Shown here: positions 6,748 to 52,361 of the stretch, one piece after another
Numbering within the stretch: position 1 is the stretch's first letter
Layout: each line of letters starts with the position of its first letter
Virus record (IMG/VR): IMGVR_UViG_3300001279_000002
Span: 1 to 57,354 of that record
Direction: 5' to 3' (one strand)
Source of the DNA: a virus
Lineage: Duplodnaviria; Caudoviricetes
DNA length: 57,354 bases
Notes under the pieces: generated by a model
Databases searched by the model: none
Told to the model about the DNA's origin: nothing
Seen by the model: only the letters and a program-made list of their open reading frames with translations
Translations under genes and position numbers: made by a program

Positions 6748-7556
6748 CTTTACCTTCGCATCCGCGCGCTGGGCGAACACCGCTCTTTCGAGCTGCTCAT
6801 GGTTTCCCATGAGAGGAGATCATATCATCATCCGCTTTCGCGGAGCCGGGCGCTTCCAGCCGCTTGGCTGTACGGGGTCCCCCTGATCGTTGCGCCTTCC
6901 CTCGACTCGGCGATCCTTTACGAGGATTCCGCCGTTTTGCCGTTTGCCAAAGTTGCAATTATAACAAAGCACTTCAAGATCATCTCGCATACCATTCCGT
7001 AAGATATCTATGTACAGCCCTATGCCGAATTCACGATAGCCGTTTTCTTTTCTAAGCTTCCACCCATCATTATTTATATGATCGATGGTCAAAAACAGTC
7101 TTTCTCGTTCTCCGCAAGCTCTGCACTCATCGCCATACAAATCAAATACTTTATTTTTGATTCGCATGTATCTTACACGGTCTAACTCTTTTGCCCGTTG
7201 CCGCCGCTCTGGCGTCCACACAGCAAGAGGATTCTCTTGATACCGTTCCCGCGCTTTCTGGAGTCTTTCTACCTTATTTGCCTGATGGTGCGACTCAACC
7301 CTTTCGGTGTTGCACTCTTTGCACTCGTGGCGGCGGTAGCCTTTCTCTCGATTGTACACAGGGAACGTATTTAAAGGCTTCGTCTCATTGCACTTTTTAC
7401 AGATTCTGGTCATTAGGGCTCCTGGAGTTTTCTAACCACCAGAATTTCTAACCACCACAACCCCGACTGTCAAGGGCTTGGTTCAGGATTGCCGCCGTCT
7501 TTCACGCTGCGGTGTTCCCTGAGTTCACCCGGTTTAGAGTCCACCAGACTTAGTTA
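6748..7556 (-). mobile_element. Group I self-splicing intron (809 nt) in the major capsid gene
   Basis: P1: exon AGUCCAU pairs with IGS GUGGACU with a U.G pair at the splice site; P element GAACUCAGGGAAC; Q AAUCCUGAACCAAGC; R GCAACGAUCAG; S GAUGAUAUGAUCU; P3 CCGGGUG/CGCCCGG; GAAA-capped P9 hairpins; terminal G at 6748. Splicing restores the frame (AT|C = Ile) to give a 358-aa capsid protein. Confidence 0.93.
6820..7413 (-). CDS. Intron-encoded HNH homing endonuclease
   Basis: CxxC zinc knuckles, CRACGE..LTIDHINNDG...LEVLCYNCN; lies within the intron and its 3' end overlaps ribozyme core elements. Confidence 0.85.
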   Translation of the reverse strand: MTRICKKCNETKPLNTFPVYNREKGYRRHECKECNTERVESHHQANKVERLQKARERYQENPLAVWTPERRQRAKELDRVRYMRIKNKVFDLYGDECRACGERERLFLTIDHINNDGWKLRKENGYREFGIGLYIDILRNGMRDDLEVLCYNCNFGKRQNGGILVKDRRVEGRRNDQGDPVQPSGWKRPAPRKRMMI

Positions 7557-15937: not shown

Positions 15938-17383
15938 TTAGAACACGTTTGCCGTAGCGATAGCCTTACTTTCGTTAAGCTCCAGCGAGAGTTTTTGAAT
16001 AAGCATCACGTCGCCAGGGACAAGATTACCTTCTGGCATAAAACACAGCCCCCGTACGCGGCGGCCGTTTTTGTCAAGCTGGTAAACGTTCATTTGCCTA
16101 CCGCGCGTTATGCGATAGGTTTTTCCAGAGCTCCCGCCCATGACGTCAAAGCAGCCGTTTGCGTCGAGCTGGGAAAGCTGGCTGTCCGACAGGTTTTCGC
16201 GGAGAAGCTTTTCAGCGCGCGCCTCCGCCGCAGTCTCCCGGACGCGGGCGGCGCCGTAAAACGACGGAAAGCGCATGAGCTGCTCACGCGCAATGTACCC
16301 CGTGCATTCGGGGCCGTTGTTTACGATTCCCATGCCATACGTCGCAGCGTCTTCCATGGCGCGGAGATGCGCGTCAGACAGACCTCCTTGGAGTTCTCCC
16401 GGCGTAAGGGGAAGCTGGCCGCCCATGAGCGCCGCAAGCGTCTGACGGTTAAGGTCACGCGCCAAGTTGCGCAATAGGTCCTGCTGGGCTGCTACAGGAT
16501 CACGGCGCTGATACGCCGCCGCCATATCCCAACGCTGTTCATATTGCGCGCGCCACCCCTGGCGATCGCGCGCCGCATTCTCTTGCCTGCGCGGCTGGCC
16601 GGGGCCTCCGCCCCAATCGCAAAAATATGGGTCCGCCAGCGCTATGCCCATGGCCGCCTCCTGCTCAATGTCCGGCGATGGGAACACCTGGGCAAGCATG
16701 GCGCGAATGGTTTCCGCCCAGCTGGCTGTCTGCGGCGTGATGTGCGCCAGATCGATGGCGCGTTTCGCTACGTCGCACGCCGCGCGCAAATAGAAGTTGC
16801 GGCGGCCCTCATGGTGAAGCAGCGCCTGCATGAGCGCCGCAGGCGTCGGATGTAGGCGCGTGAACACATCCTGATCCGGACGCCAGGACCACGCGGAGGC
16901 GTCCCCACGCTCACGGTGAAACGCCGCCCCCACGTCCGACAGGCGCGAAACGTGGGAAGGGGAGAGCGGATATGACAGAATAGCCGCAGTAGCAGAGGGC
17001 GCCATAATGTCAGAAGAGGGAAGAACAGCCTCGCTATGCGCTCTTTCCGCGCATCTCCGCATTTCACGGATGTCTGCCCTGAAGTCCTGATTGACGTGTT
17101 TGGCGTAGGCGCTTGACCAAAGCGCCAGGATGGCAGGGGCGGAGACGAAAGCGAAGTCGCGCGCGCTGAACTCGAACGCTGTGAATGATAGGTCGACCCG
17201 TTCGCCAGAGGCAAAAGAAACCCGCGTGCAGACACGATACTGCGCCTCATCCTCCCACACATCGAACGATGCAGGGGGAGGGAAAAACGTGATTCCATCT
17301 CCCCCTTTCCTATCGATGTATTGACGAAAAGCGTCTTCAAACGCCTGTGCAATGTGTTCTGTTTTCTCCGCACGCGACGCCAT
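15938..17383 (-). CDS. Hypothetical protein with C-terminal Cys-containing domain; partner of the GG-ending protein
   Basis: 481 aa; C-terminal ~95 aa AEKLLRENLSDSQ...TYRI...NVYQLD...GLCFMPEGNLVPGDVMLIQKLSLE...AN; starts 1 nt after the upstream stop. Confidence 0.7.
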   Translation of the reverse strand: MASRAEKTEHIAQAFEDAFRQYIDRKGGDGITFFPPPASFDVWEDEAQYRVCTRVSFASGERVDLSFTAFEFSARDFAFVSAPAILALWSSAYAKHVNQDFRADIREMRRCAERAHSEAVLPSSDIMAPSATAAILSYPLSPSHVSRLSDVGAAFHRERGDASAWSWRPDQDVFTRLHPTPAALMQALLHHEGRRNFYLRAACDVAKRAIDLAHITPQTASWAETIRAMLAQVFPSPDIEQEAAMGIALADPYFCDWGGGPGQPRRQENAARDRQGWRAQYEQRWDMAAAYQRRDPVAAQQDLLRNLARDLNRQTLAALMGGQLPLTPGELQGGLSDAHLRAMEDAATYGMGIVNNGPECTGYIAREQLMRFPSFYGAARVRETAAEARAEKLLRENLSDSQLSQLDANGCFDVMGGSSGKTYRITRGRQMNVYQLDKNGRRVRGLCFMPEGNLVPGDVMLIQKLSLELNESKAIATANVF

Positions 17384-24016: not shown

Positions 24017-25489
24017 TTAGTCCTCCTTTTCAAACCATGTAAGTTTCTCATCCCCAAGCACTATGTCAGAGATATTTTTCTTCATGCGCAGAGCGCGCAA
24101 AATGGCGCGGTCCATACTCCCACGGGCGACGATATCGGTATACGTCACCTTATTTACTTGCCCAATCCGGTGATTGCGGTCCTCGGATTGGAGCCTGTCG
24201 CCAAGGCGGTAACTGTTGCTGTAATAAATCGTCTGATTAGCGGCCGTCATGGTCCAGCCTTCCCCGGCCGCCGCTGGCGTCCCCACGAAAAACTGTGCGC
24301 CCCCGGCCTGGATGGCGGCGACGGCGCGGACGCGGTCAGCCTGGGGGACAGACCCATCTATTTTTACGGCGCGCTTGCCCAGAAGGCTCATGATCTTATC
24401 GACGTCGCGGCGATAGCGCGCCCAGATCAGGCATTGATCTGTCCCCATGTCCTCAATAAGCTCTCCCAGGAGGTCAAGGCGCGGGTTGTCCTTGAGGTCC
24501 GTTATTTCGTCTTCGCCGTCGAGCCTGACATAGCCAAGCGTAATCTGCTGCATGCGCATCATGCGCGTTATCGCCATTTCGGCGGACACAGCGCCGCTGT
24601 CAGGGTCCGCGCTCTTGAGCCATGTCACGAAATCGGCTTTCAGGTCCGCGTACATCCGTTTTTGCTCCGCGCTCATGTCATAGGCCATGACGCGGTAGAC
24701 CTTAGGTGGCAAGTCCAAAACGTCGGACTTAACGACGCGTGATGAAATGGGGCGGACAAGGCGGCCAAGCTCCGGAAGGTTGACGCATTTCTTGAGCGTC
24801 TCATATTGGCGGCCCATGCTGTCCTTCCGCCGCTCCCACTCGCCAAAATAGTGCTTGAACGCGGTGAACGATCCAAAACCCTGCGATTTCCAGTAACCGG
24901 GGAACACCCACTCAATTTGCGAATAAAAATCAAAGGGGCTTTGAGAAATCGGCGTCCCTGTCATCGAGCGCCTGTACTTCGCCAGATGTCGGATCGCCAT
25001 CAGGGCCTTAGTCCGTTCCGCCTTTGGGTTCTTGATTCGTGCGCTTTCGTCCACGATCATGATGGAGCGCCGGACGGTCAGGAAATCAGCGAGCGCCTCT
25101 TTCGCCGCGTCCGTCGCCAGGGCGCCGTAACCCATCATGAGCCAGCTCATCCCAGGATGCTCAAGCGTGGCCTTAAAGTCGGCTTTCACCGCCGCCCGCT
25201 TGGCTGTCTTGGAGTCCCACACATGCGACCGTGTGACGCTCATAACGCGGTCTGGGAGATGCGCCGGAAGTTCGTTATCTCGCCAATTGGAGTGCACGCC
25301 GTTCGGAGCTATAACAACGCCGCCGTCTATAAGGCCCTGCAAATAGAGCCACGCCGCCGTGTCGACGCCCAGCTTGGATTTCCCGCAACCCTGTTCCCAG
25401 TGTATGCAGAAACCCGTCTGGTTTCGCGTCTCCGCGAACAGTTTCCCCTGATGAGAAAAGGGCTTTGTCTTGAATGGGTAGTCTGGCAT
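24017..25489 (-). CDS. SNF2-family SF2 helicase (first copy)
   Basis: EQGCGKS, VDES, MTGTP, QSEDRNHRIGQ. Confidence 0.92.
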   Translation of the reverse strand: MPDYPFKTKPFSHQGKLFAETRNQTGFCIHWEQGCGKSKLGVDTAAWLYLQGLIDGGVVIAPNGVHSNWRDNELPAHLPDRVMSVTRSHVWDSKTAKRAAVKADFKATLEHPGMSWLMMGYGALATDAAKEALADFLTVRRSIMIVDESARIKNPKAERTKALMAIRHLAKYRRSMTGTPISQSPFDFYSQIEWVFPGYWKSQGFGSFTAFKHYFGEWERRKDSMGRQYETLKKCVNLPELGRLVRPISSRVVKSDVLDLPPKVYRVMAYDMSAEQKRMYADLKADFVTWLKSADPDSGAVSAEMAITRMMRMQQITLGYVRLDGEDEITDLKDNPRLDLLGELIEDMGTDQCLIWARYRRDVDKIMSLLGKRAVKIDGSVPQADRVRAVAAIQAGGAQFFVGTPAAAGEGWTMTAANQTIYYSNSYRLGDRLQSEDRNHRIGQVNKVTYTDIVARGSMDRAILRALRMKKNISDIVLGDEKLTWFEKED

Positions 25490-30985: not shown

Positions 30986-31249
30986 GCCGCCGCAGTCCGG
31001 CGCAAAATCAGTCCACGGGCCGTTTTAACGGAATGAGCCCTGCTGTCTAAAAACCTCTCGCCTCGCCAGCGGAGGGCTTTCGCGTGTCTGGAATCCATCG
31101 ACCAAGCCAAAAACGAACGCTCTGGGCCCCCAGCTCCGGGGCGTTTTGGCGTGTTTTCGGCGTGAAGCAGGCGCAAAACCAGCGTGCTGGCGCGAAATTG
31201 GCGTGTTCTTGCGTAATTTCCGCGTAAGACGTATTTTTATTCTGTTTCG

Positions 31250-31635
31250 TTCTTTTTTCAAACCACGCCAAACCAAACTAGGCCCCTCAAAACCACGATT
31301 TCAGGCCAAACCAGACCCTGCAAACCAAGCTTTTGGGGCTCGCCCAGGGGGCGGACGGTCATTTTTGGCCTCGCTACAGGTTTTTTGTTGAGAGGCTCAG
31401 CAGCGGTGAAAAGGGCGGAAATCGAGAAAAAGCTTGGATTTGAGCTCCGCCGTTTGGATTTGAAGGGCCTATTTTGGAGCGAAACCAGCCTAACTTATTG
31501 TTTTATATACCTCCTCCACAAATCCACACATATGAATAGGTACTAGGGGGAGTGTATAGACATTAGTCTAATGATTAGACGTTAGTCTATATGCGCCGTA
31601 TATAGGACGGATTTTGCGCCTTGGATTTGTGGAGC
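31250..31635. other. Putative replication origin A
   Basis: Non-coding, downstream of primase; AT-rich core, TATAGAC..GTCTATA palindrome, many TGGAT/CCAAA short repeats; inverted homology to 49265-49440. Confidence 0.55.
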
Positions 31636-31826
31636 TGCAATTTAGACCTATTCCAGGGTTGGCCGGTGTTCTCCCCTGGGCAAGGGGAACACGCCGATTA
31701 CCCGCCGCCCCGCGCCTTGACGCCGCCCCTACTCCCCCCACGTTTCGTAGGCGGCCACAAAGGCCGTACAGCCCCCTTTACGCGGGGGCGCGCCAACCCA
31801 CAGCCGATCCTATGAATGGAGCCCCT

Positions 31827-32165
31827 ATGAGCCCGATACCCAGCCCCAGAGAGTATGTGTGCGGCGACAGCCTGTCGCTCGTAGCGTCCTACGTTTATCC
31901 CCGTGGCTGGAGGCGTACGAGCGAATCGACGTGGGAGCGCCCTGGGCGAGACGGCGCGCCACCTGTCCACGTCGTCTATGTTTCAGACCCCCGCCGCCTG
32001 ATGGGCGCGCTGGGCGGCGTGCTCCACATGGCGCCGTTCGTCGGCTCCAGGCCGCGCGCACGCCAAGACTTCCTGGATATGGCCGGATGTCGCCGCATGC
32101 GCGTCTCCCACCTGTTCGATATGGAGCGCGCCATTCATGAAGCGCAAAGGCGCTCTTCCCCATGA
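31827..32165 (+). CDS. Hypothetical protein
   Basis: GGAG RBS before MSPIPS. Confidence 0.45.
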   Translation: MSPIPSPREYVCGDSLSLVASYVYPRGWRRTSESTWERPGRDGAPPVHVVYVSDPRRLMGALGGVLHMAPFVGSRPRARQDFLDMAGCRRMRVSHLFDMERAIHEAQRRSSP

Positions 32166-32199
32166 TGGGGTAAAACAGTGGTGCGCGCCAAAAACCCAC

Positions 32200-32228
32200 T
32201 TTACAGCGGCCGAAGGCGCTGGCATGAT
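32200..32228 (+). promoter_or_regulatory. Phage consensus promoter copy upstream of ncRNA array
   Basis: TTTACA-GCGGCCGAAGGCGCTGG-CATGAT. Confidence 0.65.
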
Positions 32229-32669
32229 CCGCCCTGTAGCCGACGCGGCGCCCACAATGCCAAATCAGCGACATACGCCCCAAACGCAACCCGGAGGGGC
32301 TGGCTCCCCCCAAAGCCGCCAGCCCTTCCAACCCAAAACAGTAGTGTATGAAGTCGGAACGCCGTTCCGTTGGCTCAGACACCCACCGTGCTTTTTCTGA
32401 TAGGTAGGCGCGCCGACTTCACCGACTACTGCAACGCATAGCGCCATATGCGCAAGCACATTTCTGTTTCCGATGGTTTTGTCTGTGGAGTCGGCGGCGC
32501 GGCCTGGAATTTGGAACTCAAACTGATTTCGCCCAGCGCCGCCGACTTTCCGCTTTGAGCAAAAATGCCTGACTACAGACGTTTTTGCTGAAGGAGGCCC
32601 CGCTTAGCGTGGGGAGTCATGCTTGCCTCTTTCTGGCCACGCTCCGGATAAGTCGCCAGAAAAACAGGC

Positions 32670-32744
32670 GTGATTTTGTAGCATAGGGGTAGTGCGGCGG
32701 ATTTGTAATCCGTGTCTGCGCCGGTTCGAGTCCGGTCAACCACC
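32670..32744 (+). tRNA. Degenerate tRNA-Thr(TGT)-like element
   Basis: D arm GCAT/GTGC, anticodon arm GCGGA-TTTGTAA-TCCGT, T arm GCCGG-TTCGAGT-CCGGT; acceptor stem mispaired, no CCA. Confidence 0.65.
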
Positions 32745-33318
32745 TTCATCCGTTCTGGAGCGTCGAGGCCCGAAAATCTTGTGTTTCAAACAATTTTTCA
32801 ACCGCCTCGGCGCCTCAGAAACCCGGTTTATGGAATGCCGCCCGGAGACGAATGAGCACGGCTCCAGTAGTCTCGCCAGGGTTAACCGCTCCCCTCCGTC
32901 TCATGGGGAAACGGATGAAGCATAGACGGTGACAGCGCGGAAAGACGGCCCGGATTTAAAAGTTTCCTCCCCGGCGCAAGGTGCGCCACTCGATGCGCGA
33001 TCACGCATTTGAAGGGCCGGTTAAACTCCGTGGGGGAGGGCCAAGTTCCGGTAGCCTCCTGGATTTGAAACCCTCGGGGCACGCTAAAACCGGCGCCGCC
33101 CTGTTAGCGTGGGGCGGCGATAAATTAAAGCGTCGGCGAATGCCCAGGAAACTACATTTGGTATGACGTTTCCGAATCACTTGTCGCCGACGCCTTCGAA
33201 TGCCTGCCCCAGGAAGTAAGCACGGGGTTTCAAAGCTGTCTGCCGGGTCTCAGCCGCCTTGAAACCACCACGCGACAGGGGAGCCCGCGCAGAGGCTTCT
33301 GTAAATATCTGCGCATTT

Positions 33319-33403
33319 TGGCTGGTGGCGTAGCGGTTCCGCATTTCCCGTTCGGCCACAACGAATCGGAAAGACGCAGGTTCGAATCCTGCCCAGCCAA
33401 CTA
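33319..33403 (+). tRNA. tRNA-like element with elongated anticodon arm
   Basis: Acceptor TGGCTGG/CCAGCCA, D arm, T arm GCAGG-TTCGAAT-CCTGC; anticodon stem ~11 bp with loop GCCACAA; ends A-CTA. Confidence 0.7.
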
Positions 33404-33801
33404 ACCGCCATCGTTGCGGCCCGTCGTTCCTCATGCCCTAGCAAATCGCCTGAACCGATTTGCGCCATGGGCTAAACGCTCAAAGCAAAGGCTGACAGCG
33501 GAGGAGTTCAGGCGACGGGCCACAAGGACGGCGGCCATAACAGGCGGCGAGACGCGGGAATCTGCACTACTTACGGCCGGAAGGTTTTGCAGACGATCAA
33601 ATCCGCCGCGCGCGGCGCAAGGGCCTGGGCCTGATGAGGGTCTTTCGTTTCGAGACGGAGCGCGCCGAGTCCTACCGTTCCCCGCCTTCTCGGGGTCACA
33701 GAATCAGCCATGAATGACTTTCTCCATGTGGGGGAATCGCTCCGGCTGGCCCTCCCTGGGCAAGGATCAAAAGGCCCAATCTTCCTTCTATGCACGACTT
33801 A

Positions 33802-33831
33802 GGCGCGCTCCGTATGGGGCGCGCCCTTTTA
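33802..33831 (+). terminator. Rho-independent terminator
   Basis: GGCGCGCTCC-GTAT-GGGGCGCGCC followed by CTTTTATT. Confidence 0.75.
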
Positions 33832-33856
33832 TTGCGTGGTCCTCGCCCATATCCGG

Positions 33857-33883
33857 AGCGCACCGTTGTTTTCCGTTATCCAC
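33857..33883 (+). repeat. Left copy of 27-bp imperfect direct repeat (promoter-like)
   Basis: AGCGCACCGTTGTTTTCCGTTATCCAC, 23/27 identical to 41337-41363. Confidence 0.7.
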
Positions 33884-33962: not shown

Positions 33963-34319
33963 ATGGATAATGTTGACCTAATCAATCAAACATTTCGATC
34001 AAACGGTTACAGCTATCACGCGGAACACGCGCGCAACGGCATGATGAATGTTTACGACGGCCCTGCGTTCGTCGTGCGCCTCCCAGTAAGCACATCAGCC
34101 GCTCAGGTGCTCCAGACGCTAAACTGCGGCGGCTCAACGACTGTTGTCGTGGATCGCGGCCCATCGTTTGGGCAATGCGTCGCGGAAGGCGTTGGCAACG
34201 GCTTGGGCTTTGGCCTTGGCGTCGCGGCGATCAACAGCATGTTTGGCCACGGCCACGATACGGTCATTCACGAAACTGTCGTCTATGACGACAGCGACGG
34301 CGATTTCTTCGACGACTGA
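33963..34319 (+). CDS. Small protein with glycine-zipper segment and acidic tail
   Basis: GAGG RBS; GVGNGLGFGLGVAA; ends DDSDGDFFDD. Confidence 0.65.
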   Translation: MDNVDLINQTFRSNGYSYHAEHARNGMMNVYDGPAFVVRLPVSTSAAQVLQTLNCGGSTTVVVDRGPSFGQCVAEGVGNGLGFGLGVAAINSMFGHGHDTVIHETVVYDDSDGDFFDD

Positions 34320-34359
34320 CGACGGGAAAAACAAGCGAAACCAGCCAGGGGAGAGCCAC

Positions 34360-36336
34360 ATGTTTGGATTTTCAAAGAGAAAGAAGCGGTTCACCCCTGA
34401 CCGGGATTCCGTTGTGTCTGTCTTTCAGGCCATTTTAAACAGGCTATGTGAAGGCCCCGGAGACGCGGATACATTTGATGTCATCATGATCGATGAAGGA
34501 GACGGAACGACTGCCTCTATCTCGGTTACGCCATCCACCAGACACGCTGTAGTTTCGATTAATCCAATTATCACGTCTCGCCCAAATGAGGACCTGTGGA
34601 CGGCGCTCGCCCATGAGCTTGGTCATAGCTATGCGGACGGAAAGGGCCACGGCCCGGAGTGGTTCGCATGGATGCTAGATCGCGGAATCACGGTGAACAC
34701 CGTGACGATTGAGGGCCGAGAAGTCCAGGGCGAGCCCCACCGCATCATTCGCGGAGGGAGGTTAGATCGTCTCCGCAACAAGTGGCATGAGGAGCACGGT
34801 GTAGAGCCGGACTCCATGTCAGAAAAGTTTGAGCCCCGAATGATTGATTTTCGGGACGTCTCCCCCACGCGCTATTCCCCCCCGGTCCCGTTTACGGAGA
34901 ACCCGGCCGCGATGGCGTACATCGCCCGCAACCCCCCGTCTGGGCCGACTACCCCGGACGTTTATTCTCGTGGTTATGCGGCGGCCTCTCGGAAAGCGCA
35001 ACAGAAAGGAATGGAGAATATGACAGGCCGCGCGTCGGGGTGGTCCACGCCACCGTCAGGAACGACACATCTTGACCAGTCCGGAAATATCAGCGCCCCG
35101 GTAACCGACCTGACGGGGTGGACTGTGGCGCTCGATGTCTCTGCTTCCATGGATTATGCCGTTACAGGGAGCAACAGTTCCCGCTTGGGCGTAGCCAAAC
35201 AACAGCTGCGGAGCTATTGGCCGGAGGGCGGAGGCGCGCGTCTCCTGACATTTTCTCAAGTTATTTCAGAATACGATTCCCCAAAAAAGATTCCCATTCT
35301 TGCAGAGAGTGGGACGCTTTACGGAATACTTTTTCACGCTATTGCCGATAGCGGAAACAGCGAACAAGTATTGATCATATCTGATGGAGATTTGGTTGAT
35401 GATGATAAGTACTCCTCCCAGGAAACTAGGGAAACGGAAGAGTCCGTTCTTGCAGCGCGCCAACGTGCCATTGACTCCGGCGTACGCGTTATCTCCGCAA
35501 TATTCATCGGGGAGATAAATGACCCCGGCTTCTCGTTCATGCGCAAGCTCTGTTATGGCGGGGGCGTGTGCACAGCAGCCCTTGACCCTGGCGCCATGGA
35601 GCAGGCGCTTAACGCTTCAATGAAGGGAGCCCGAGCAGTGGCGAATAACCCTCTAGGCGCCCCCTCCGTAACGGCGGCGGCGCGCCATATCGCTGACCTG
35701 ACCCCATCCATCCAACAACAGGCTACGCATCTAAAACACCGTGTGGAGATTGACTCCCGTGTCGTCGAGCTTGGCCAAACAGTCGCCGACGTTGTCGCCA
35801 ACGTCCACGAGCTTCAGGGCCGGACGATCATCAGTGAATCATTCACTGGTCTTCATGCCCAGGCGGCGGGGATGGCCGTGGACGCCATCCAAAACCAGCG
35901 CGCCCAAGAGGCCGTTGACGCGACGGCGCAAGAGCAGTCGTTAGCCGCTCTGCGCGGGAGCCTGCAAGAGGGCGGCCAAAGGGCGCTTGGGCAGGTCAAG
36001 GCCGGATATGAGGGCATGATTCTCAACCACGCTGCGAAAGTGGCGGCGCTTCCTGTTCATGGTTCTGCTGGAGGCGTTTATGTGAAGGATACAAGACTTG
36101 ACGAGTCCGTGTACGCCAAGGCGAGGGCGCTCCTCAGTGCGCAGAGACAAGGGCAAGCGCAAGAGTCCCGTGTGCTCCCTGCTCCAGCCAGGGAAGCTCA
36201 CCCGCTCCCTCCTCCGGTCAGGGAAACCCGTATGTTGCCTCCCCCAAATCAACATGTCGCAACTTCGCCGATCCTTGACGGGGGGCGTCCCCTATTCAGC
36301 GTCGCCGCCAGGAGGGTTCGCAATGATAGTAACTGA
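34360..36336 (+). CDS. SprT-like zinc metalloprotease fused to VWA domain and helical tail
   Basis: LAHELGH...GHGPEW (HExxH); MIDAS DVSAS...GT...ISDG; start refined to MFGFSK. Confidence 0.8.
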   Translation: MFGFSKRKKRFTPDRDSVVSVFQAILNRLCEGPGDADTFDVIMIDEGDGTTASISVTPSTRHAVVSINPIITSRPNEDLWTALAHELGHSYADGKGHGPEWFAWMLDRGITVNTVTIEGREVQGEPHRIIRGGRLDRLRNKWHEEHGVEPDSMSEKFEPRMIDFRDVSPTRYSPPVPFTENPAAMAYIARNPPSGPTTPDVYSRGYAAASRKAQQKGMENMTGRASGWSTPPSGTTHLDQSGNISAPVTDLTGWTVALDVSASMDYAVTGSNSSRLGVAKQQLRSYWPEGGGARLLTFSQVISEYDSPKKIPILAESGTLYGILFHAIADSGNSEQVLIISDGDLVDDDKYSSQETRETEESVLAARQRAIDSGVRVISAIFIGEINDPGFSFMRKLCYGGGVCTAALDPGAMEQALNASMKGARAVANNPLGAPSVTAAARHIADLTPSIQQQATHLKHRVEIDSRVVELGQTVADVVANVHELQGRTIISESFTGLHAQAAGMAVDAIQNQRAQEAVDATAQEQSLAALRGSLQEGGQRALGQVKAGYEGMILNHAAKVAALPVHGSAGGVYVKDTRLDESVYAKARALLSAQRQGQAQESRVLPAPAREAHPLPPPVRETRMLPPPNQHVATSPILDGGRPLFSVAARRVRNDSN

Positions 36337-36820: not shown

Positions 36821-37329
36821 TGGCGACGGATTTTATTACAGGCGTTGTGCTCCCAACAATGGGGGCGGCATGCGTAGCAGGGACAGCAATGTTTTATGTC
36901 GCCTCTGGGCTCAACCACGGCGGCGCGCAAGAAAGAGGGAAAAGAGATTTGGGACGTTCACTAGTCGACGCCACCCCGCCACCCAGGAAAATTGGGCGAC
37001 GCCGAGAGCTCATTCTTACGCAGACCGAACGCTATGCGCGCATAGAGGCAAAGAAAGACGCCACGAAGCACGGCCCGCGCCTTGACGCGCACGACGTGTT
37101 TTACCAGTGGTTTGCGACGCATATCTTGTTGATAGCCAACCCTACGAACGCGGATGTCATCCCATATGATGACTGGATACAGAGTTACGTGGGCTACTGC
37201 AACGCGCACAAACACCCATTGCTTGATAGTGACGAACAGATCGTGGAAACGATTAAATCCTATGCGCAGGCGAGTCGCTGTTCTATTGGAAATCTGGGAG
37301 AGTTTAATGGCGGCAGACTTAAGGGGTGA
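36811..37329 (+). CDS. Membrane-anchored protein with possible primase-type winged-helix C-terminus
   Basis: N-terminal TM; C-terminal DVFYQWF...YVGYC..H.HP pattern. Confidence 0.6.
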   Translation: MAIVATDFITGVVLPTMGAACVAGTAMFYVASGLNHGGAQERGKRDLGRSLVDATPPPRKIGRRRELILTQTERYARIEAKKDATKHGPRLDAHDVFYQWFATHILLIANPTNADVIPYDDWIQSYVGYCNAHKHPLLDSDEQIVETIKSYAQASRCSIGNLGEFNGGRLKG

Positions 37330-39427
37330 TAGGACGCGCACCGCGCCTGACGCCGCTCAAACGTGCACATTCATCGAAGCGCTTGACCCAGACAGAACCA
37401 TTTGGCAGTTGGGGGCGTACTTCGGGCGCACATGGGGCTGGGCGGGGTTCTACGGCCCGTCACGACGGGCGCAAGCACAAGAATGGATAGCGGGGCGCTA
37501 TCGGGCGGGGGCAGGAGTGTGGCTCCTCTTGGGGGATGTCAGCGCGCCACATGCTCATGGTCTAGCCCCGTCATCTATCGTGGGAGTCCGTTTCATCGCC
37601 GCAACGGCCGGGAGCTCCGTCGACCTGTTGTCCCCCTGGGCAGGAGATCCCCTTACAGTCTATCAGGATCAAACGGGGCAGTTCGTTGGAATTTGGAAGC
37701 TCCCCCGCGCCATCGCCCAGGAAGACGAGGCCGAAGAGTGCGGCAAAGCCGCCGCCCGTTGCTGTGTCGGGAGATTGTCCGCGTCCCCGCTTCTCCGCGT
37801 AGCCCCCCTCCCCGGCGATTTCCGCGCGGCGGGCGGCGGCCGGGGGTCTATCGTTCGCATGCCGCTTCATGGCCGGACGGCGACTCCGCTTGTTCCTGCG
37901 CTGCCGGTTCTCGCCCAGGAAGGCTATGCAGCGACCGCTCTTGCGTTGCCATCCGCAGAGCGAACTGTGATTGAGGATCAGGACCGCTGGTTGGCGCACT
38001 CGATAAGCGAGGCCCTGGAGTCGCAAAAGATCACAGGCGGCCGCATCGTTGGAATGACGCGCGGCCCGCTCGTCACCGTGTGCGACTATGAGCCCGCGCG
38101 TTCAGAGAAGAGCGCCCGCGTCGTCAAGTCATCAAACGATGTCGCGCGGCTCATCAAGGCCGCCTCCGTCATCGCCCGCGAAGACACGGCGCGGGGCGTC
38201 GTCTGTTTTGACGTATCCAATGAACGGAGAGACATCGTCCATCTGCGCGGCGTCCAGGCGTCGGCCGAATGGGGGAGCGCCAAGCGCTCTATGGCGCTCC
38301 CATATATCCTGGGCGTAACGAGCGCGGGAGAGCCGCTTATCATAGACTTCGCCAAGGCGCCCCATGTGCTCAAGGCGGGGTCGACAGGGAGCGGGAAGTC
38401 AACGGGCATGAACTCCGGAATCGTGTCGCTTCTGGAGGCGCGCGGACCCGATAAGCTGCGCGTGATCCTTATTGATCCAAAACGCGTCGAGCTATCGATT
38501 TACGGCCGCCACAAACAGGCGCCCTCAGATATCCCCCACCTGCTCGCCCCTATCGCCAACGACGCGACCAAGGCGGCGGCGGCGCTTGAATGGGCCCTGG
38601 GAGAGATGCTCCGGCGCTATGAGCTATTAGAAGAGGAGGGCGTCTCCAACGTCGCAGAATATAACGAACAGTTGGCGGAGTTCCGCGCGGCCGGGGATTC
38701 CGGCGTCCCTGACGATATGCCCCGCATCCTGATCGTGATCGACGAATATGCGATGCTCCTCCAGCAGGCGGAGCGCCGCGTAAAGGACGTTGTTCGCCGC
38801 CTGTCGGCTGAAGCGCGCGCGGCGGGAATACACATCCTGCTGGCGACGCAGCACCCGAGCGCAAAAATGATGTCCGGCGATCTGCGGACTAATTTTCCTG
38901 TGGCCGTAACCTACCGCATGGCCAAAAACGAAGGCTCTATCGTGGCCACGGGGTCGACGATCGCCCGTCGTCTTCTGGGCGATGGAGATGGGCTCCTTGA
39001 CCGTGGCGACGGCTTCGAGCGCATCCACGCGCCCTATATTTCGAAGGCCGAAATAAGGGAGCGCCTCGCGCCCGTCCGCGCCCTGGGCGAGCCTGTTTTC
39101 GCCTTCGACTACACGGGCGCTCGTCCAGTGAGGCCGTCTGACGCCGGGTCTGGATACGACGATTCAGGGCCTGTTTTCGACGCCGGGAGCGGGGATTTCA
39201 CGCCGGAAGAGGAGAACGAACACGGGGTGAAAGAAAGCCCAAGAGGGGCGGCAATGTCAGAACTTTGTAAGATCATGCCCAGGGGGCAGCAGATGCGAAG
39301 GGCCGATGTCTGGCGCGAAATGAAGGCGTGCGGCCACTCAAAAGGAACCATGGACAGGGCGTCCGATGACATGGGAATCGACAAGGTCGACGGCAAGGGA
39401 AATGACCAACTGTGGACGCGCCCATAA
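37307..39427 (+). CDS. FtsK/SpoIIIE-family ATPase with N-terminal degenerate primase-like domain
   Basis: GPLVT, APHVLKAGSTGSGKS, LIDPKRVEL, EMLRRY, IVIDEYA, ARAAGIHILLATQHP, LLGDGDGL. Confidence 0.9.
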   Translation: MAADLRGDRTRTAPDAAQTCTFIEALDPDRTIWQLGAYFGRTWGWAGFYGPSRRAQAQEWIAGRYRAGAGVWLLLGDVSAPHAHGLAPSSIVGVRFIAATAGSSVDLLSPWAGDPLTVYQDQTGQFVGIWKLPRAIAQEDEAEECGKAAARCCVGRLSASPLLRVAPLPGDFRAAGGGRGSIVRMPLHGRTATPLVPALPVLAQEGYAATALALPSAERTVIEDQDRWLAHSISEALESQKITGGRIVGMTRGPLVTVCDYEPARSEKSARVVKSSNDVARLIKAASVIAREDTARGVVCFDVSNERRDIVHLRGVQASAEWGSAKRSMALPYILGVTSAGEPLIIDFAKAPHVLKAGSTGSGKSTGMNSGIVSLLEARGPDKLRVILIDPKRVELSIYGRHKQAPSDIPHLLAPIANDATKAAAALEWALGEMLRRYELLEEEGVSNVAEYNEQLAEFRAAGDSGVPDDMPRILIVIDEYAMLLQQAERRVKDVVRRLSAEARAAGIHILLATQHPSAKMMSGDLRTNFPVAVTYRMAKNEGSIVATGSTIARRLLGDGDGLLDRGDGFERIHAPYISKAEIRERLAPVRALGEPVFAFDYTGARPVRPSDAGSGYDDSGPVFDAGSGDFTPEEENEHGVKESPRGAAMSELCKIMPRGQQMRRADVWREMKACGHSKGTMDRASDDMGIDKVDGKGNDQLWTRP

Positions 39428-49967: not shown

Positions 49968-52361
49968 ATGAGCCGATACATCACTTTAACCACTGACGCC
50001 GCCGCCTTCCGCGTATCCTTCGACTATGACGCTGCGCTTGTCGCCGCCATCAAATCGGCGATCGACTACAAGGCGCGCAGCTTTGTGAAAGAGAACCGTG
50101 GCGGCCATTGGGTTGTGAACACGTCTGCCGCCGCCATCCTGGCCAAGTTCGCCGTGGATCACGCCTTTAGCGTCGAGGAAACGGCCGCCGACAAAATCAA
50201 GGCGCTCCTCTCCGCCCCTGCCGTTCCCGCCATCGCCCTCCCCCACATAACCGCCCGCACGCTCCAGGGCGAAATCGTCGCCTTTCATATCCGCACGCCA
50301 GGGTTTGACGCAGAGCAGAACGCCGTCATTAAGTCCGCTGGCGGGGCCAAGTGGAATGGGGACGGCAAATATTGGGACGTTCCTTTTTCCCGCGCCGCCA
50401 TAACCGCCGTTGAGGCCCTCGCCCACGGCTTTGGCCTGACGATCGCCCCTGACCTCGCCCAGGCCGTAAACGCCGCGCTGGCGGCTCAAGATAGCGTCAT
50501 TGGCCTGTCCGCCGCTCACGACGCCGATATCCAAATCCCGGCGCCGGACGGCCTCGCCTACCTGGGCTATCAAAAGGCGGGCATTGCCTACGCCGCCCAG
50601 AAAAAGAGCTGCATAATCGGGGATGAACCCGGCCTGGGCAAAACGATCCAAGCCATCGGCGCCAGCAATCTGGACCCCGCCGCCCGCCGCATTCTCGTGA
50701 TCTGCCCCGCCTCGCTTAAGATCAACTGGGCGCGGGAGTGGGATAAGTGGTGTGTAAAGGGCCTCCGCGTCGAGATCGTGAAGAACGGCAAGCCTGAAAG
50801 CTGGCCCGCCCGCGCTGACGTCGTGATCATCAATTATGACCTCGTTGGCAAGCACGGCGACGCCATTTTCGCCCAGAGCTGGGACATGCTGATCGTCGAC
50901 GAAGCCCACAACCTGAAGAACCCGAAGACGAAGCGCACGAAGAATATCCTGGGGCTGCGCGCTCGTGACGGCGGATGGGAGGAAACCCCTATCCCGGCCA
51001 AGCGAATTCTCCTCCTGACTGGCACGGCTATCGTTAACCGCCCTATCGAGCTATGGACTCTCGTGTCGGCCGTCAACCCTTCGCGCTTCAACAACTTTTT
51101 CGCATTTGCGAAACGCTATTGCGATGCGAAGCAGGACGGATATGGCTGGAATTTCAGTGGGGCCAGCAACTTAGGCGAGCTGCACGCGGAGCTGCGCGCC
51201 AACTGCATGGTGCGGCGCAAGAAAGCCGATGTGCTGACGGAGCTCCCAGCTAAGACGCGCCAGATCGTCCGTGTCGAGTGCACGGCGGCCGTGAAGAAAG
51301 AGACCAAGACGCGCGACAGGCTGACGCGCCGTCTGATCGAGCTTGAAGCCGCCAAGCTGCTCGCCTTCCTGGGCGATGACCGCGACGCCTACACATACGC
51401 GGTTGAGGACCTGAAATCAGCCCAGGCGACGGCGTTCGCGGAAATGTCGAAGCTTCGCCACGCTACGGCGCTCGCCAAATTGCCGGAGGTTATCGCCCTT
51501 GTGCGCGAGTCCTTGGAGCAGGGCAAGGTGATTCTGTTCGCGCACCATGCCGACGTCATTGACGCCCTTGCGGCCGAATTCGGGGACTCCGCCGTCGTTA
51601 TTGATGGCCGTACGCCTCTCGATCGCCGTCAGGCCGCCGTTGACCGCTTCCAGACTGACGACTCTTGCGTGGTCTGCATCGCCTCTATCCAGGCCGCTGG
51701 CGTCGGGCTCACGCTTACCGCGTCGAGCCATGTCATTTTCGCGGAACTCGATTGGGTTCCTGGCAACATGACGCAGGCCGAAGACCGCGCCCATCGGATT
51801 GGCCAGCGCGAAAACGTTCTGGTCTGGCATGTCGTCGCCGACGGCAGCATTGACGCCCACATGGCGAAGATGATCGTCCGCAAGCAAAGGACGATAGACG
51901 CTGCTCTGGACGCCGGGGAGGTCGAAGCGCGGCGCGTCGACCTCCCCGGCGCTGTCGACACGGAGGAACTGTCGCCTGTGGCCAACGTGATCCCCGAGTT
52001 CGTCACTGTGTCGAGCGCCGAAGTTAACGCGTGGCTCGCCCAGGGGAGCGCCGAACGCGTCGACGCGACGGTTGCCCGCGCCACGCAGCGCGCCGCAGAC
52101 AGGGGTTTTGGCCGCGAAGCCGCAGAGATGACGCCGGAGCAGATCGCCGCCGTGCGCATCAACCTGGGCGCGCTCGTGGCTGTCTGCGACGGCGCGGTTG
52201 AAAACGACGCCATGGGATTTTCCGGCGTCGACGCAAAGGTTGGTCACGCCCTGGCGCGGCTTGCCGAACTTGAGCCCATTCAGGCCGCCTATGCGCGGGC
52301 GATGCTGGGCAAGTACAAGCGCCAGTTGGGCGTGGAAGCCGTTAACGCAATGTGGAGCTAA
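49968..52361 (+). CDS. SNF2-family (SMARCAL1/HARP-like) helicase (second copy)
   Basis: GDEPGLGKT, VDEAH, LTGT, QAEDRAHRIGQ; two N-terminal HARP-like repeats. Confidence 0.92.
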   Translation: MSRYITLTTDAAAFRVSFDYDAALVAAIKSAIDYKARSFVKENRGGHWVVNTSAAAILAKFAVDHAFSVEETAADKIKALLSAPAVPAIALPHITARTLQGEIVAFHIRTPGFDAEQNAVIKSAGGAKWNGDGKYWDVPFSRAAITAVEALAHGFGLTIAPDLAQAVNAALAAQDSVIGLSAAHDADIQIPAPDGLAYLGYQKAGIAYAAQKKSCIIGDEPGLGKTIQAIGASNLDPAARRILVICPASLKINWAREWDKWCVKGLRVEIVKNGKPESWPARADVVIINYDLVGKHGDAIFAQSWDMLIVDEAHNLKNPKTKRTKNILGLRARDGGWEETPIPAKRILLLTGTAIVNRPIELWTLVSAVNPSRFNNFFAFAKRYCDAKQDGYGWNFSGASNLGELHAELRANCMVRRKKADVLTELPAKTRQIVRVECTAAVKKETKTRDRLTRRLIELEAAKLLAFLGDDRDAYTYAVEDLKSAQATAFAEMSKLRHATALAKLPEVIALVRESLEQGKVILFAHHADVIDALAAEFGDSAVVIDGRTPLDRRQAAVDRFQTDDSCVVCIASIQAAGVGLTLTASSHVIFAELDWVPGNMTQAEDRAHRIGQRENVLVWHVVADGSIDAHMAKMIVRKQRTIDAALDAGEVEARRVDLPGAVDTEELSPVANVIPEFVTVSSAEVNAWLAQGSAERVDATVARATQRAADRGFGREAAEMTPEQIAAVRINLGALVAVCDGAVENDAMGFSGVDAKVGHALARLAELEPIQAAYARAMLGKYKRQLGVEAVNAMWS

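What the first reader, a model, noticed from the sequence alone, without database searches (positions are those of the whole stretch)
32200..33831. Dedicated ~1.3-kb transcription unit of pseudoknotted RNA domains punctuated by tRNA-like elements
Seen: between a phage promoter and a terminator there is almost no coding potential but continuous nested helices, with at least five loop-mediated pseudoknot pairings: AGCGTGG 32606/CCACGCT 32637; CCGTCT 32896/AGACGG 32924; CACGCTAA 33080/TTAGCGTG 33104; GCGCAGA 33287/TCTGCGC 33308; CCTGAAC 33449/GTTCAGG 33506. Structured domains begin right after each tRNA-like 3' end. Known: large phage RNAs such as GOLLD and ROOL occur beside or around tRNAs. Inference: either a new giant ornate RNA, or a polycistron of small RNAs released by RNase P/Z at tRNA mimics, possibly anti-defence decoys.
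Basis: partly seen in the sequence, partly recalled or inferred. Interest (0 to 1): 0.85.

Follow-up and report, generated by a model that had tools for sequence, protein, structure and literature searches.

The report
Phage array of tRNA-like and Y-like RNAs
A 1.6-kb gene-free stretch of an uncultured phage most likely encodes a string of separately folding small RNAs, namely three defective tRNA look-alikes, one Y-RNA-like hairpin of a type that recurs in phage tRNA operons, and several plain hairpins, rather than one giant RNA.

Summary
Window 32200-33835 has no coding signal, folds better than shuffles and than coding controls, and ends in a strong intrinsic terminator. All five quoted word pairs sit at the stated coordinates. 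None of them forms in the nested fold ensemble, and only two join unpaired loops, so "five pseudoknots" is not supported.

The stretch contains three tRNA-like modules, none canonical, and one stem-bulge-stem hairpin (33130-33194) that matches the Ro60-binding stem of Rfam YrlA below threshold.

Eleven further viral contigs carry the same hairpin, with covarying stems. In this set of 12, nine lie beside tRNAs or tRNA-like modules, and four of the records encode a Ro60/Rsr protein. In one jumbo phage the hairpin sits about 40 nt upstream of rsr.

A distant relative (primase 38% identical) has a syntenic 1.15-kb non-coding cluster. It holds the same two conserved modules in a different order. 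Related strains in other metagenomes delete or replace single modules.

Best reading: a co-transcribed, modular array of small RNAs, with the Y-like hairpin a likely Ro60/Rsr ligand. It is not a GOLLD/ROOL-type giant RNA. Transcription, processing and function are inferred. This is a new variant of a known kind, of moderate interest.

The parts
32200..32228 (+). Promoter-like site: TTTACA, 17 nt, TG-CATGAT
   Evidence: Consensus scan gave 9 of 12 matches, at chance frequency. ACTTTACA plus a 17-nt spacer recurs in front of the syntenic cluster in L003, around 16275-16305. This is inferred, not shown.
32258..32662 (+). Leader block of nine local hairpins. The larger ones are 32293-32329, 32339-32431, 32485-32553, 32554-32593 and 32630-32662.
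   Evidence: MFE domains. Segment 32229-32670 has z -5.50, with 0 of 100 shuffles as stable. A variant contig in run X4 skips 32332-32450, which is hairpin 32339-32431 as a unit.
32671..32744 (+). tRNA-like module 1, Thr-UGU type. D, anticodon and T arms are canonical, but the acceptor stem has only 4 of 7 Watson-Crick pairs.
   Evidence: ARAGORN. Rfam tRNA 41.7 bits, matching model positions 5-66 only. The acceptor mismatches are read from the ARAGORN drawing.
32754..32883 (+). Two hairpins, 32754-32819 and 32820-32883. These are replaceable spacer modules.
   Evidence: MFE domains. In runs X8 and X5 contigs jump from 32749 to 32861 or to 32920 with 122 or 85 other letters in between, and from 32714 to 32891.
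32965..33043 (+). tRNA-like module X. It has a 7-bp acceptor-like stem (CCUCCCC/GGGGAGG), a D-like hairpin (GGCGC-AAGGU-GCGCC), a short middle hairpin with no 7-nt anticodon loop, a weak T arm and an encoded 3' GCCA.
   Evidence: ARAGORN at -ps80 calls a tRNA of no assignable anticodon. It is the only blastn-alignable block shared with L003 (88 nt, 65% identity, E 0.015). A model built from L003's copy hits it at 22.3 bits, E 2.7e-4. Acceptor pairs 6 and 7 change C-G to G-C.
33093..33120 (+). G+C-rich hairpin CGCCGCCC / GGGGCGGCG, whose loop holds UUAGCGUG
   Evidence: MFE. The quoted CACGCUAA/UUAGCGUG pairing would consume the whole loop and is absent from the ensemble.
33130..33194 (+). Y-RNA-like stem-bulge-stem hairpin ('mini-Y'). 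It has a 10-bp basal stem, GGCGAAUG at the stem/bulge junction, a 6-bp inner stem, apical CUACAUUUGGUAUG and 3' bulge ...CACUUG.
   Evidence: Rfam YrlA RF02553 scores 30.7 bits (gathering score 69), E 3.2e-4, with the tRNA-like domain (57 model positions) replaced by 5 nt. The fold is -28.2 kcal/mol, z -4.87. It belongs to a 12-member hairpin set with covarying stems.
33233..33298 (+). Hairpin domain between mini-Y and tRNA-like module 3
   Evidence: MFE. No homologue was found.
33319..33401 (+). tRNA-like module 3, called tRNA-Gly(GCC) by ARAGORN. The acceptor stem (7 bp) and T arm are perfect. The anticodon arm is an 11-bp stem with one C-C mismatch, and its loop GCCACAA lacks U33.
   Evidence: ARAGORN reports 83 nt. 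Rfam tRNA scores 43.3 bits, with 24 nt in place of 13 in the anticodon arm. Fold.
33405..33534 (+). 130-nt branched domain closed by CCGCC/GGCGG, starting 4 nt after tRNA-like module 3
   Evidence: MFE. L003 has AACCGCC and a closing helix of similar span directly after its last tRNA-like module. It contains the loop CCUGAAC, which could pair with GUUCAGG at 33506 (P 0.026).
33544..33618 (+). Hairpin domain
   Evidence: MFE.
33802..33835 (+). Intrinsic terminator GGCGCGCUCC-GUAU-GGGGCGCGCC followed by CUUUUAUU
   Evidence: Scan found 10 pairs, 9 of them G-C. A variant in run X8 inserts 2 nt behind 33812, beside the GUAU loop.

Best explanation
Window 32200-33835 is a dedicated non-coding unit of an uncultured tailed phage. 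It encodes a modular array of independently folding small RNAs, not one large RNA.

The array holds three tRNA-like modules that cannot decode normally. One has a mismatched acceptor stem. One has no anticodon loop but keeps a conserved acceptor stem and an encoded GCCA end. One has an 11-bp anticodon stem. The array also holds one Y-RNA-like stem-bulge-stem hairpin and about a dozen other hairpins.

Inferred mechanism:
- The unit is transcribed as one precursor, from a sigma-70-type promoter to the terminator at 33802-33835.
- Host tRNA-processing enzymes (RNase P at 5' ends, 3' tRNA-end nucleases) cut at the well-formed acceptor/T-arm modules and release the neighbouring hairpins.
- The Y-like hairpin binds a Ro60/Rsr ring protein, either the host's or one encoded in the missing part of the genome. 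As known Y RNAs do, it would tether that protein to an exoribonuclease such as PNPase.
- The tRNA look-alikes act as tRNA mimics toward host tRNA-handling or tRNA-cleaving proteins, not as decoders.

Shown: absence of coding signal, excess structure, the modules, their conservation and covariation, and modular turnover. Inferred: transcription, processing, Ro60 binding, and any decoy role.
For: 1. Non-coding and structured.

2. Synteny. The only relative found is L003 (primase 38% identical). It has a 1.15-kb stretch without coding signal, downstream of a homologous small ORF (BLASTP E 2e-6). That stretch holds a tRNA-Tyr-like gene with C33 and a short variable arm, a sub-threshold tRNA-like (24.2 bits, 6-nt anticodon loop), a copy of module X and a copy of the Y-like hairpin.

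3. Module order differs. The window runs Thr-like, X, mini-Y, Gly-like. L003 runs mini-Y, tRNA-like, X, Tyr-like.

4. Covariation between window and L003. In mini-Y, 4 of 9 outer-stem pairs and 3 of 6 inner-stem pairs change on both sides and none is broken. The bulge word AUGC, the apical CUACAUUU and the 3' UUG are kept.

5. The hairpin set. Two pattern scans of IMG/VR gave 29 and 9 loci. Ten of these, plus window and L003, make 12 that share the architecture. Outer pairs 1-5 are standard in 60 of 60 cells. Inner pairs 1-4 are standard in 48 of 48 cells, with up to 5 pair types per position. The search patterns did not fix the inner stems, apart from one base in the second pattern.

6. Context of the 12.
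- Nine have tRNA or tRNA-like genes on the same strand in the fetched locus.
- In L023 the hairpin lies between tRNA-Phe and tRNA-Lys in a 23-tRNA array, with spacers of a few bases.
- In L053 it lies between two tRNA-Glu genes, about 6-7 nt from each.

7. Ro60/Rsr. Four of the 12 records encode it: G005, G007, G008 and G011.
- In G007 the hairpin ends about 40 nt upstream of the rsr start codon on the same strand.
- In G005 no full YrlA was found at E up to 0.1 in the 17-kb stretch fetched, which holds both the hairpin and rsr.

8. Rfam and literature.
- G003's copy hits Rfam YrlB at 27.5 bits, E 0.096.
- The window hairpin carries GGCGAAUG, which fits the GNCGAAN0-1G motif of bacterial Y RNAs (PMC4201824, passages read).
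- It also fits the CGAA stem-bulge-stem description of hairpin Y-like RNAs bound by a phage Ro60 (PMC12135203, passages read).

9. Modular turnover in related strains.
Against: - No RNA data. No listed run that holds the stretch is on record as RNA, so transcription, ends and processing are unshown.
- The promoter match is at chance level.
- The YrlA hit is far below the gathering score (30.7 against 69). L003's copy lacks the GNCGAA motif (it reads GCGCAAAUG) and gives no YrlA hit at E up to 10.
- No Ro60/TROVE gene is present in the window or in L003. Three complete records with the hairpin (G006, G009, G010) also lack it.
- Three of 12 hairpin loci have no tRNA within 6-9 kb.
- Most of the 1.6 kb (leader hairpins, spacers, 33405-33800) has no detectable homologue. 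Parts of it are deleted or replaced in close strains, so it may be dispensable.
- The Thr-like module's weak acceptor stem makes it a poor RNase P substrate.
- The hairpin set was ascertained with patterns derived from the window. Outer pairs 1-3 (1-5 for the first pattern) are fixed by the search. My structural alignment was anchored on motifs and each sequence's own MFE.
Confidence: 0.6

Rival explanations
1. A decaying tRNA island. The stretch is what remains of an ordinary phage tRNA gene cluster. The tRNA-likes are pseudogenes on their way out, and the spacers are functionless or only carry terminator or processing hairpins. At most the Y-like hairpin is functional.
For: - All six tRNA-like modules in the two phages deviate from canonical tRNA.
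- The window's module X has a degenerate T arm, while L003's is intact.
- Close strains delete or replace modules, and one variant has a different T arm in front of 33041.
- Most spacer sequence is not conserved between window and L003.
Against: - Two phages whose primases are only 38% identical both keep more than 1 kb of non-coding DNA at the same place.
- Module X keeps 65% identity, its acceptor stem through compensatory changes, and the 10-mer GGAGGGCCAA, while everything around it is unalignable. That is not expected of a long-dead pseudogene.
- Spacer segments fold far better than shuffles and than coding controls.
Confidence: 0.22
2. Decoy or resistant-substrate cassette against tRNA-targeting immunity. 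The non-decoding tRNA look-alikes soak up or mislead host anticodon nucleases, acceptor-end nucleases or tRNA-modifying toxins. The rest is packaging.
For: - tRNA-like shape is kept, with non-canonical anticodon arms in all modules.
- X has a conserved acceptor stem and GCCA end.
- Module turnover is rapid between strains, as expected in an arms race.
- Phage tRNAs are reported to counter tRNA-cleaving defences (PMC10264068 and PMC11555353; titles and abstract openings from the search listing only).
Against: Nothing tests this directly. The host and its defence repertoire are unknown. Published cases involve functional tRNAs that replace cleaved ones, not non-decoding mimics. Both papers were seen only as a search listing.
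Confidence: 0.12
3. One large ornate RNA of GOLLD/ROOL type, whose helices and pseudoknots form a single architecture around embedded tRNAs.
For: - The non-coding stretch is long and has excess predicted structure.
- Two loop-to-loop complementarities exist.
- GOLLD and ROOL occur near tRNAs.
Against: - No Rfam hit to any large RNA at E up to 10.
- Conserved modules are in a different order in L003.
- Single modules are deleted or replaced in strains.
- No conserved long-range pairing was found.
- Three of the five proposed pseudoknot helices compete with stronger local helices.
Confidence: 0.04
4. Unrecognised small protein genes fill the stretch.
For: ORFs of 40-99 codons exist on both strands.
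Against: - All score at or below +0.06 in codon log-odds, against +0.09 to +0.28 for real genes.
- Several overlap tRNA-like genes or run through the terminator.
- The syntenic stretch in L003 likewise has no coding frame.
- These small ORFs were not themselves run against Pfam or PHROGs.
Confidence: 0.02

Closest known systems
[quoted passage not shown]
   Same: Both are phage-encoded. Both have a stem / large internal bulge / stem layout with a CGAA motif at the bulge, and neither has a tRNA-like domain. In one set member (G007) the hairpin lies directly upstream of a phage Ro60 gene, as Yrl1 and Yrl2 do.
   Different: The window has no Ro60 gene in its 57 kb (54% of the estimated genome). 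The hairpin sits in an array with tRNA-like modules rather than next to Ro60. No sequence comparison with Yrl1 or Yrl2 was possible, because their sequences were not held here. Binding is untested.
Bacterial YrlA / YrlB Y RNAs: Rfam RF02553 and RF02565; Chen et al. 2014 (PMC4201824; passages read)
   Same: Basal stem with GNCGAAN0-1G on the 5' strand, AUGC ... CUA ... ACUUG words, and a sub-threshold CM hit. The paper says that YrlA and YrlB of M. smegmatis are processed from one precursor, and that each species has one Y RNA that is a long hairpin.
   Different: The tRNA-like domain that defines YrlA is missing: 57 model positions are replaced by 5 nt. The score of 30.7 is below the gathering score of 69. 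It is not within 4 kb of an rsr gene. The paper's supplementary tables of phage hits could not be seen.
Phage tRNA gene clusters that carry extra small stable RNAs, such as the T4 tRNA region with its species 1 and 2 RNAs (recalled; from no call)
   Same: tRNA-type genes and non-tRNA small RNAs are co-transcribed and cut out by tRNA-processing enzymes. In L023, L053 and L056 the hairpin sits inside bona fide tRNA arrays.
   Different: In the window none of the three tRNA-type modules is canonical, and most of the unit is hairpin spacer.
tRNA-miRNA-encoded RNAs (TMERs) of murine gammaherpesvirus 68 (recalled; from no call)
   Same: Viral non-aminoacylated tRNA-like modules are followed by hairpins, with tRNA 3'-end processing releasing the hairpins.
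   Different: This is a eukaryotic virus using Pol III and the miRNA pathway. It is an analogy only.
GOLLD and ROOL large RNAs (Rfam)
   Same: Phage-associated, and near tRNAs (recalled).
   Different: No match at E up to 10. The window's unit is modular and re-orderable.

Membership tests
Y RNA (Ro60/Rsr ligand; YrlA / YrlB / phage Yrl type) | The 5' and 3' ends pair into a basal stem, followed by a large internal bulge and a second stem | tested here: met
   Fold of 33127-33197 shows a 10-bp stem, a 7/10-nt bulge and a 6-bp stem, z -4.87.
Y RNA (Ro60/Rsr ligand; YrlA / YrlB / phage Yrl type) | GNCGAAN0-1G (CGAA) motif on the 5' strand at the stem/bulge junction (PMC4201824, PMC12135203) | tested here: met
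   GGCGAAUG at 33134-33141. It is not met in L003's copy, which reads GCGCAAAUG.
Y RNA (Ro60/Rsr ligand; YrlA / YrlB / phage Yrl type) | Encoded near a Ro60/rsr gene on the same strand (within about 4 kb in Chen et al. 2014) | tested here: not met
   No TROVE or vWA_Ro60 match in the window or in L003's record; these records are 54% and 62% complete. Among the hairpin's relatives it is met in G007, about 40 nt upstream of rsr. G005, G008 and G011 have Ro60 about 10 kb or more away.
Y RNA (Ro60/Rsr ligand; YrlA / YrlB / phage Yrl type) | Binds Ro60/Rsr | not testable with these tools
   Needs a gel-shift assay or co-immunoprecipitation.
Rfam YrlA RF02553 | Score at or above the gathering threshold, and presence of the internal tRNA-like domain | tested here: not met
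   30.7 bits against 69. Only 5 nt stand where the model has 57 positions.
Canonical decoding tRNA | 7-bp acceptor stem, 5-bp anticodon stem with a 7-nt loop and U33, and a T loop | tested here: not met
   The Thr-like module has 4 of 7 acceptor pairs. The Gly-like module has an 11-bp anticodon stem and loop GCCACAA. Module X has no 7-nt anticodon loop. Two of the three do pass the Rfam tRNA gathering score (41.7 and 43.3 against 29).
GOLLD / ROOL / other large ornate RNAs | Match to the family covariance model, and one conserved architecture | tested here: not met
   No hit at E up to 10. Module order differs in L003. Single modules are lost in strains.
   Two of the five helices join unpaired stretches (P 0.12 and 0.026). 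Three of the five compete with MFE helices. There are no homologues with which to test covariation of these pairs.

The most novel reading that the evidence does not exclude
An RNA-only host-takeover cassette. A phage with no Ro60 of its own carries a Y-RNA hairpin together with non-decoding tRNA mimics, one of which has a conserved acceptor stem and encoded CCA end. With these it captures the host's Rsr-PNPase and tRNA-repair or surveillance machinery, or decoys tRNA-cleaving immune nucleases. Modules are swapped between strains as in an arms race. More broadly, hairpin Y RNAs would be a recurrent, so far unlisted passenger of phage tRNA operons, which would link phage tRNA islands to Ro60 biology.
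Probability: 0.2. Interest if true: 0.8.

Novelty: new variant of a known kind. Interest (0 to 1): 0.52.

Why it matters
Phage tRNA islands are usually read as codon-supply or, more recently, as replacement parts against tRNA-cleaving immunity.

This locus suggests a third kind of content: tRNA-shaped RNAs that cannot decode, and a Y-RNA-type hairpin. The hairpin recurs in at least 12 viral contigs, including three complete genomes with no Ro60 gene.

If the hairpin binds host Rsr, small phages could steer host RNA decay or repair with an RNA of about 65 nt alone. It would also give a simple sequence and structure signature for finding Ro60 ligands in viromes.

The claim is directly testable with a gel shift and an in-vitro RNase P assay.

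Tried and rejected
Searches for relatives
- blastn of the stretch against 50,697 phage records gave no match.
- Single-protein locus searches with the 730-aa neighbour and with the primase found nothing.
- The 730-aa neighbour has no homologue other than itself among the 8000 candidates scored.
- Alignment-based primase searches found only one relative, L002 = L003, in metagenome and viral contigs, and none in genome contigs.
- A pattern for module X gave 5 loci in viral contigs: L003's own record plus 4 chance hits. It gave 0 in genome contigs.
- A window/L003-specific mini-Y pattern hit only L003's record.

Alignment attempts
- Global MAFFT and RNAalifold of window against L003 were uninformative or misaligned.
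- blastn of the stretch against the whole L003 record found nothing better than E 0.04.

Hairpin set: rows left out
- Of the 29 loci, I set aside 12 copies or variants of one sequence and 3 copies of another that do not fold as the hairpin. They are probably coding, which I did not check.
- I also set aside 9 further loci (L019, L026, L029, L031, L032, L036, L042, L043, L045) that lack the UACAU word. Some of these do fold stem-bulge-stem.

Other
- RtcB is absent from both records.
- Sequencing runs: no RNA holder is listed.
- Of more than 290 variant positions, only 41 were shown, and 9 of those fall in the region. Four are unpaired, 4 keep their pair and 1 breaks a dubious long-range pair. 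This is too few to count as a test.
- Literature searches did not show a description of hairpin Y-like RNAs inside phage tRNA arrays or in Ro60-less phages.
Full report
**What the window is.** The window is a whole IMG/VR virus record of 57,354 bp. It is linear and estimated 54% complete. It carries tailed-phage genes:
- portal, virion protein, DNA polymerase, Dda-like and SNF2-like helicases, amidase endolysin and a D5/P4-type primase;
- an FtsK/SpoIIIE-like protein.

It has no close cultured relative. Portal identity is at most 42% and primase identity at most 34%.

**Checking the observation.**
- The five quoted word pairs are exact reverse complements at the stated positions.
- A codon log-odds model trained on the window's long genes finds no coding frame from about 31000 to 33880. 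ORFs inside the region score -0.22 to +0.06. Thirteen correctly framed training genes score +0.09 to +0.28, and the next gene (33963-34319) scores +0.15. One training interval was mis-framed by my own slip.
- The three segments between the tRNA-type genes fold with z -5.50, -3.08 and -3.01. Eighteen 440-nt coding controls gave mean z -0.50, sd 0.91, minimum -1.83.
- Structure is not uniform. Several 150-nt windows have z at or above 0.4.
- The terminator at 33802-33835 is strong. The promoter is only a chance-level consensus match. Its ACTTTACA block and 17-nt spacer do recur in front of the relative's cluster.
- None of the five claimed helices appears in the nested ensemble; pair probability is at most 0.03.
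- Three of the five compete with stronger local helices.
- Two join unpaired stretches: CCGUCU/AGACGG and CUGAAC/GUUCAG, with P 0.12 and 0.026 against loop shuffles, uncorrected.
- 'Five pseudoknots' is therefore unsupported, although one or two tertiary contacts remain possible.

**What is in the stretch.** ARAGORN and Rfam call two tRNAs, and neither is canonical.
- The Thr(UGU) gene has only 4 of 7 acceptor pairs in either register.
- The 'Gly' gene is 83 nt. Its acceptor stem and T arm are perfect. Its anticodon stem has 11 bp, and its loop GCCACAA lacks U33.
- A third cloverleaf, X (32965-33043), appears only at a lowered ARAGORN threshold. It has a 7-bp acceptor-like stem, a D-like hairpin, a short middle hairpin with no anticodon loop, a weak T arm and an encoded GCCA end.
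- At 33133-33193 Rfam YrlA (Y RNA-like) matches at 30.7 bits, against a gathering score of 69, with E 3.2e-4. The match covers both strands of the basal Ro60-binding stem. The 57 model positions of the tRNA-like domain are replaced by 5 nt.
- No other Rfam family comes near. There is nothing for GOLLD, ROOL or tmRNA.

**Relatives of the locus.** Only one related phage could be fetched: L003 (= L002), with a primase 38% identical. Downstream of its primase lies a small ORF homologous to window 31614-32165 (E 2e-6). After that come 1.15 kb without coding signal, which are strongly structured in the first 400 nt (z -7.69). This stretch holds:
- a tRNA-Tyr-like gene with C33 and a short variable arm;
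- a sub-threshold tRNA-like (24.2 bits, 6-nt anticodon loop);
- a well-formed copy of X;
- a copy of the Y-like hairpin.

DNA similarity is confined to modules. X aligns over 88 nt at 65% identity (E 0.015), and the 5' half of the hairpin also aligns. My single-sequence covariance models find each other's copy:
- the X model from L003 hits the window at 22.3 bits, E 2.7e-4;
- the hairpin model from the window hits L003 at 13.4 bits, E 0.33. That is weak, but it falls at the same place as the blastn hit.

Between the two hairpins, 4 of 9 outer pairs and 3 of 6 inner pairs change on both sides and none is broken. AUGC, CUACAUUU and UUG stay fixed. Module order differs between the two phages: the hairpin precedes the tRNA-likes in L003 and lies between X and the last tRNA-like in the window.

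**Variation among strains.** Eleven DNA runs from wetland and soil metagenomes hold all or part of the stretch, and none is on record as RNA. I laid four runs from different studies.
- Variant contigs are about 90% identical.
- One deletes hairpin 32339-32431 as a unit (skip 32332-32450).
- Others replace the segment that starts 5 nt after the Thr-like module. They jump from 32749 to 32861 or to 32920 with 122 or 85 other letters, and from 32714 to 32891.
- Others skip 32989-33065 or 33667-33779.
- One places a different T arm in front of 33041.

The unit is therefore a string of exchangeable modules. Only contigs were available, and most variant rows were not shown.

**The hairpin belongs to a wider set.** A pattern made of the two basal-stem strands found 29 viral loci. 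A second pattern, which relaxes the stem and requires CUACAU, found 9 loci, 5 of them new. After setting aside sequences that do not fold as a hairpin or lack the UACAU word (listed under Tried and rejected), 10 loci plus window and L003 share one architecture:
- a basal stem ending ...CGA / UCG...;
- a 5' bulge AUGC(C);
- an inner stem that mostly ends ...AC;
- an apical UACAU;
- a 3' bulge ending ACUUG.

In my motif-anchored table, outer pairs 1-5 are standard pairs in 60 of 60 cells. Inner pairs 1-4 are standard in 48 of 48 cells, with up to five pair types at one position. The patterns fixed outer pairs 1-3 or 1-5 and one base of inner pair 1. The rest was free to vary.

Genomic context of the 12:
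- Nine have tRNA or tRNA-like genes on the same strand in the fetched locus.
- In L023 the hairpin lies between tRNA-Phe and tRNA-Lys of a 23-tRNA array, a few bases from each.
- In L053 it lies between two tRNA-Glu genes.
- In L056 it lies just upstream of tRNA-Pro in an 18-tRNA array.
- Three loci have no tRNA within 6-9 kb.

**Link to Ro60/Rsr.** Four of the 12 records encode a Ro60/Rsr orthologue.
- G005: 531 aa, vWA_Ro60 76 bits, TROVE 31 bits, PDB 2nvo E 6e-23.
- G007: PDB 2nvo E 7e-24.
- G008 and G011.
- In G007 the hairpin ends about 40 nt upstream of the rsr start codon on the same strand. That is the classical position of bacterial Y RNAs.
- In G005, which is complete, no full YrlA is found at E up to 0.1 in the 17-kb stretch fetched. 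That stretch holds both rsr and the hairpin, which heads a tRNA cluster about 10 kb from rsr.
- G003's copy gives a weak Rfam YrlB hit of 27.5 bits, E 0.096.
- Against a simple rule: the window, L003, G003, G004 and three complete genomes (G006, G009, G010) show no Ro60. G002, a 12-kb fragment, was searched with TROVE only. G009 and G010 were searched with vWA_Ro60 only.

**Comparison with what is known.**
- Chen et al. 2014 (PMC4201824; passages read) define bacterial Y RNAs by a GNCGAAN0-1G motif near the 5' end. They found YrlA near Ro60 in 254 bacteria and 22 phages. They note that each studied species also has a long-hairpin Y RNA, and that YrlA and YrlB of M. smegmatis come from one precursor.
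- A 2025 paper on Thermus phage phiLo (PMC12135203; passages read) shows a phage Ro60 binding two phage-encoded hairpin Y-like RNAs. It describes them as stem-bulge-stem with a CGAA motif, and it proposes hijacking of host PNPase.
- The window's hairpin carries GGCGAAUG and has that shape. It fails the Rfam threshold, lacks the tRNA-like domain and has no Ro60 gene nearby. I therefore file it as 'works like a hairpin Y RNA; membership probable but unproven'.
- The tRNA-type modules pass (two) or fail (one) the tRNA model, and all fail the features needed for decoding.

**Verdict.** The most likely reading is a co-transcribed, modular array of small RNAs: three tRNA mimics, a Y-like hairpin and other hairpins. 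tRNA-processing enzymes would cut it at the well-formed acceptor/T-arm modules, and the hairpin would act through Ro60/Rsr.
- Shown: non-coding nature, excess structure, module conservation and covariation, modular turnover, and the hairpin set's association with tRNA arrays and with rsr.
- Inferred: transcription, processing, protein binding and any decoy role.
- Main rival: a decaying tRNA island in which only the hairpin matters.
- A single giant RNA is disfavoured.
- My literature searches did not turn up hairpin Y-like RNAs inside phage tRNA operons or in Ro60-less phages. Supplementary tables that I could not open may bear on that.

Noticed in passing
window 30990-31620: About 600 nt of non-coding DNA directly after the primase gene. 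It contains repeated GGCG(C/T)...AAA(A/C)C words, an A+T-rich run (31235-31260) and two 14-nt palindromes, TAGACATTAGTCTA and TAGACGTTAGTCTA, 19 nt apart (31557-31589). Local fold z is -5.25. It looks like an origin or operator region.
   Followed up: partly
window 31614-32165 (probable start ATG 31815); L003 15714-16109: A small ORF with a weak coding score, directly upstream of the RNA cluster. It is conserved between the two phages (GWRR... block, BLASTP E 2e-6) and has no Pfam or PHROG hit. Its fixed position next to the cluster raises the question of whether it acts on these RNAs.
   Followed up: partly
window 34144-36336: A 730-aa protein with only a sub-threshold SprT-like match (23.9 bits against a cut-off of 25.6). 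It had no homologue other than itself among the 8000 candidates scored in the 5.8-billion-protein search.
   Followed up: partly
window 37154-39427: An FtsK/SpoIIIE-family ATPase (145 bits) in a phage that also has a portal. The terminase was not identified in the window.
   Followed up: no
window 24017-25489 (-) and 49968-52361 (+): Two SNF2-type helicase genes of the same PHROG (phrog_62) on opposite strands.
   Followed up: no
L048 (G005) 2343-2442 (-) and 6691-6937 (-): Inside the tRNA cluster of a complete 173-kb phage there is a wcaG RNA match above its gathering score (47 against 42 bits). There is also a tmRNA-like match below threshold (36.3 against 47 bits). Both lie on the same strand as the Y-like hairpin and rsr.
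   Followed up: no
L003 17314 / 17364: A 6-nt loop-to-loop complementarity, CCCAAC/GUUGGG, between MFE-unpaired stretches in the domain after the last tRNA-like module (P 0.012 against loop shuffles). It parallels the CUGAAC/GUUCAG pair in the window's equivalent domain.
   Followed up: partly
window 32599-32614 and 33099-33114: The 16-mer CCCGCTTAGCGTGGGG / CCCTGTTAGCGTGGGG is repeated 500 nt apart, each time with a complementary CCACGCT or CACGCTAA word nearby. It may be an alternative-pairing switch or a duplicated module. It is absent from L003.
   Followed up: partly
window 32965-32971 / 33032-33040 and L003 16792-16798 / 16855-16861: The acceptor-like stem of module X is made of CCUCC paired to GGAGG, that is, an anti-Shine-Dalgarno-like word paired to a Shine-Dalgarno-like word. 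It is conserved in both phages.
   Followed up: no
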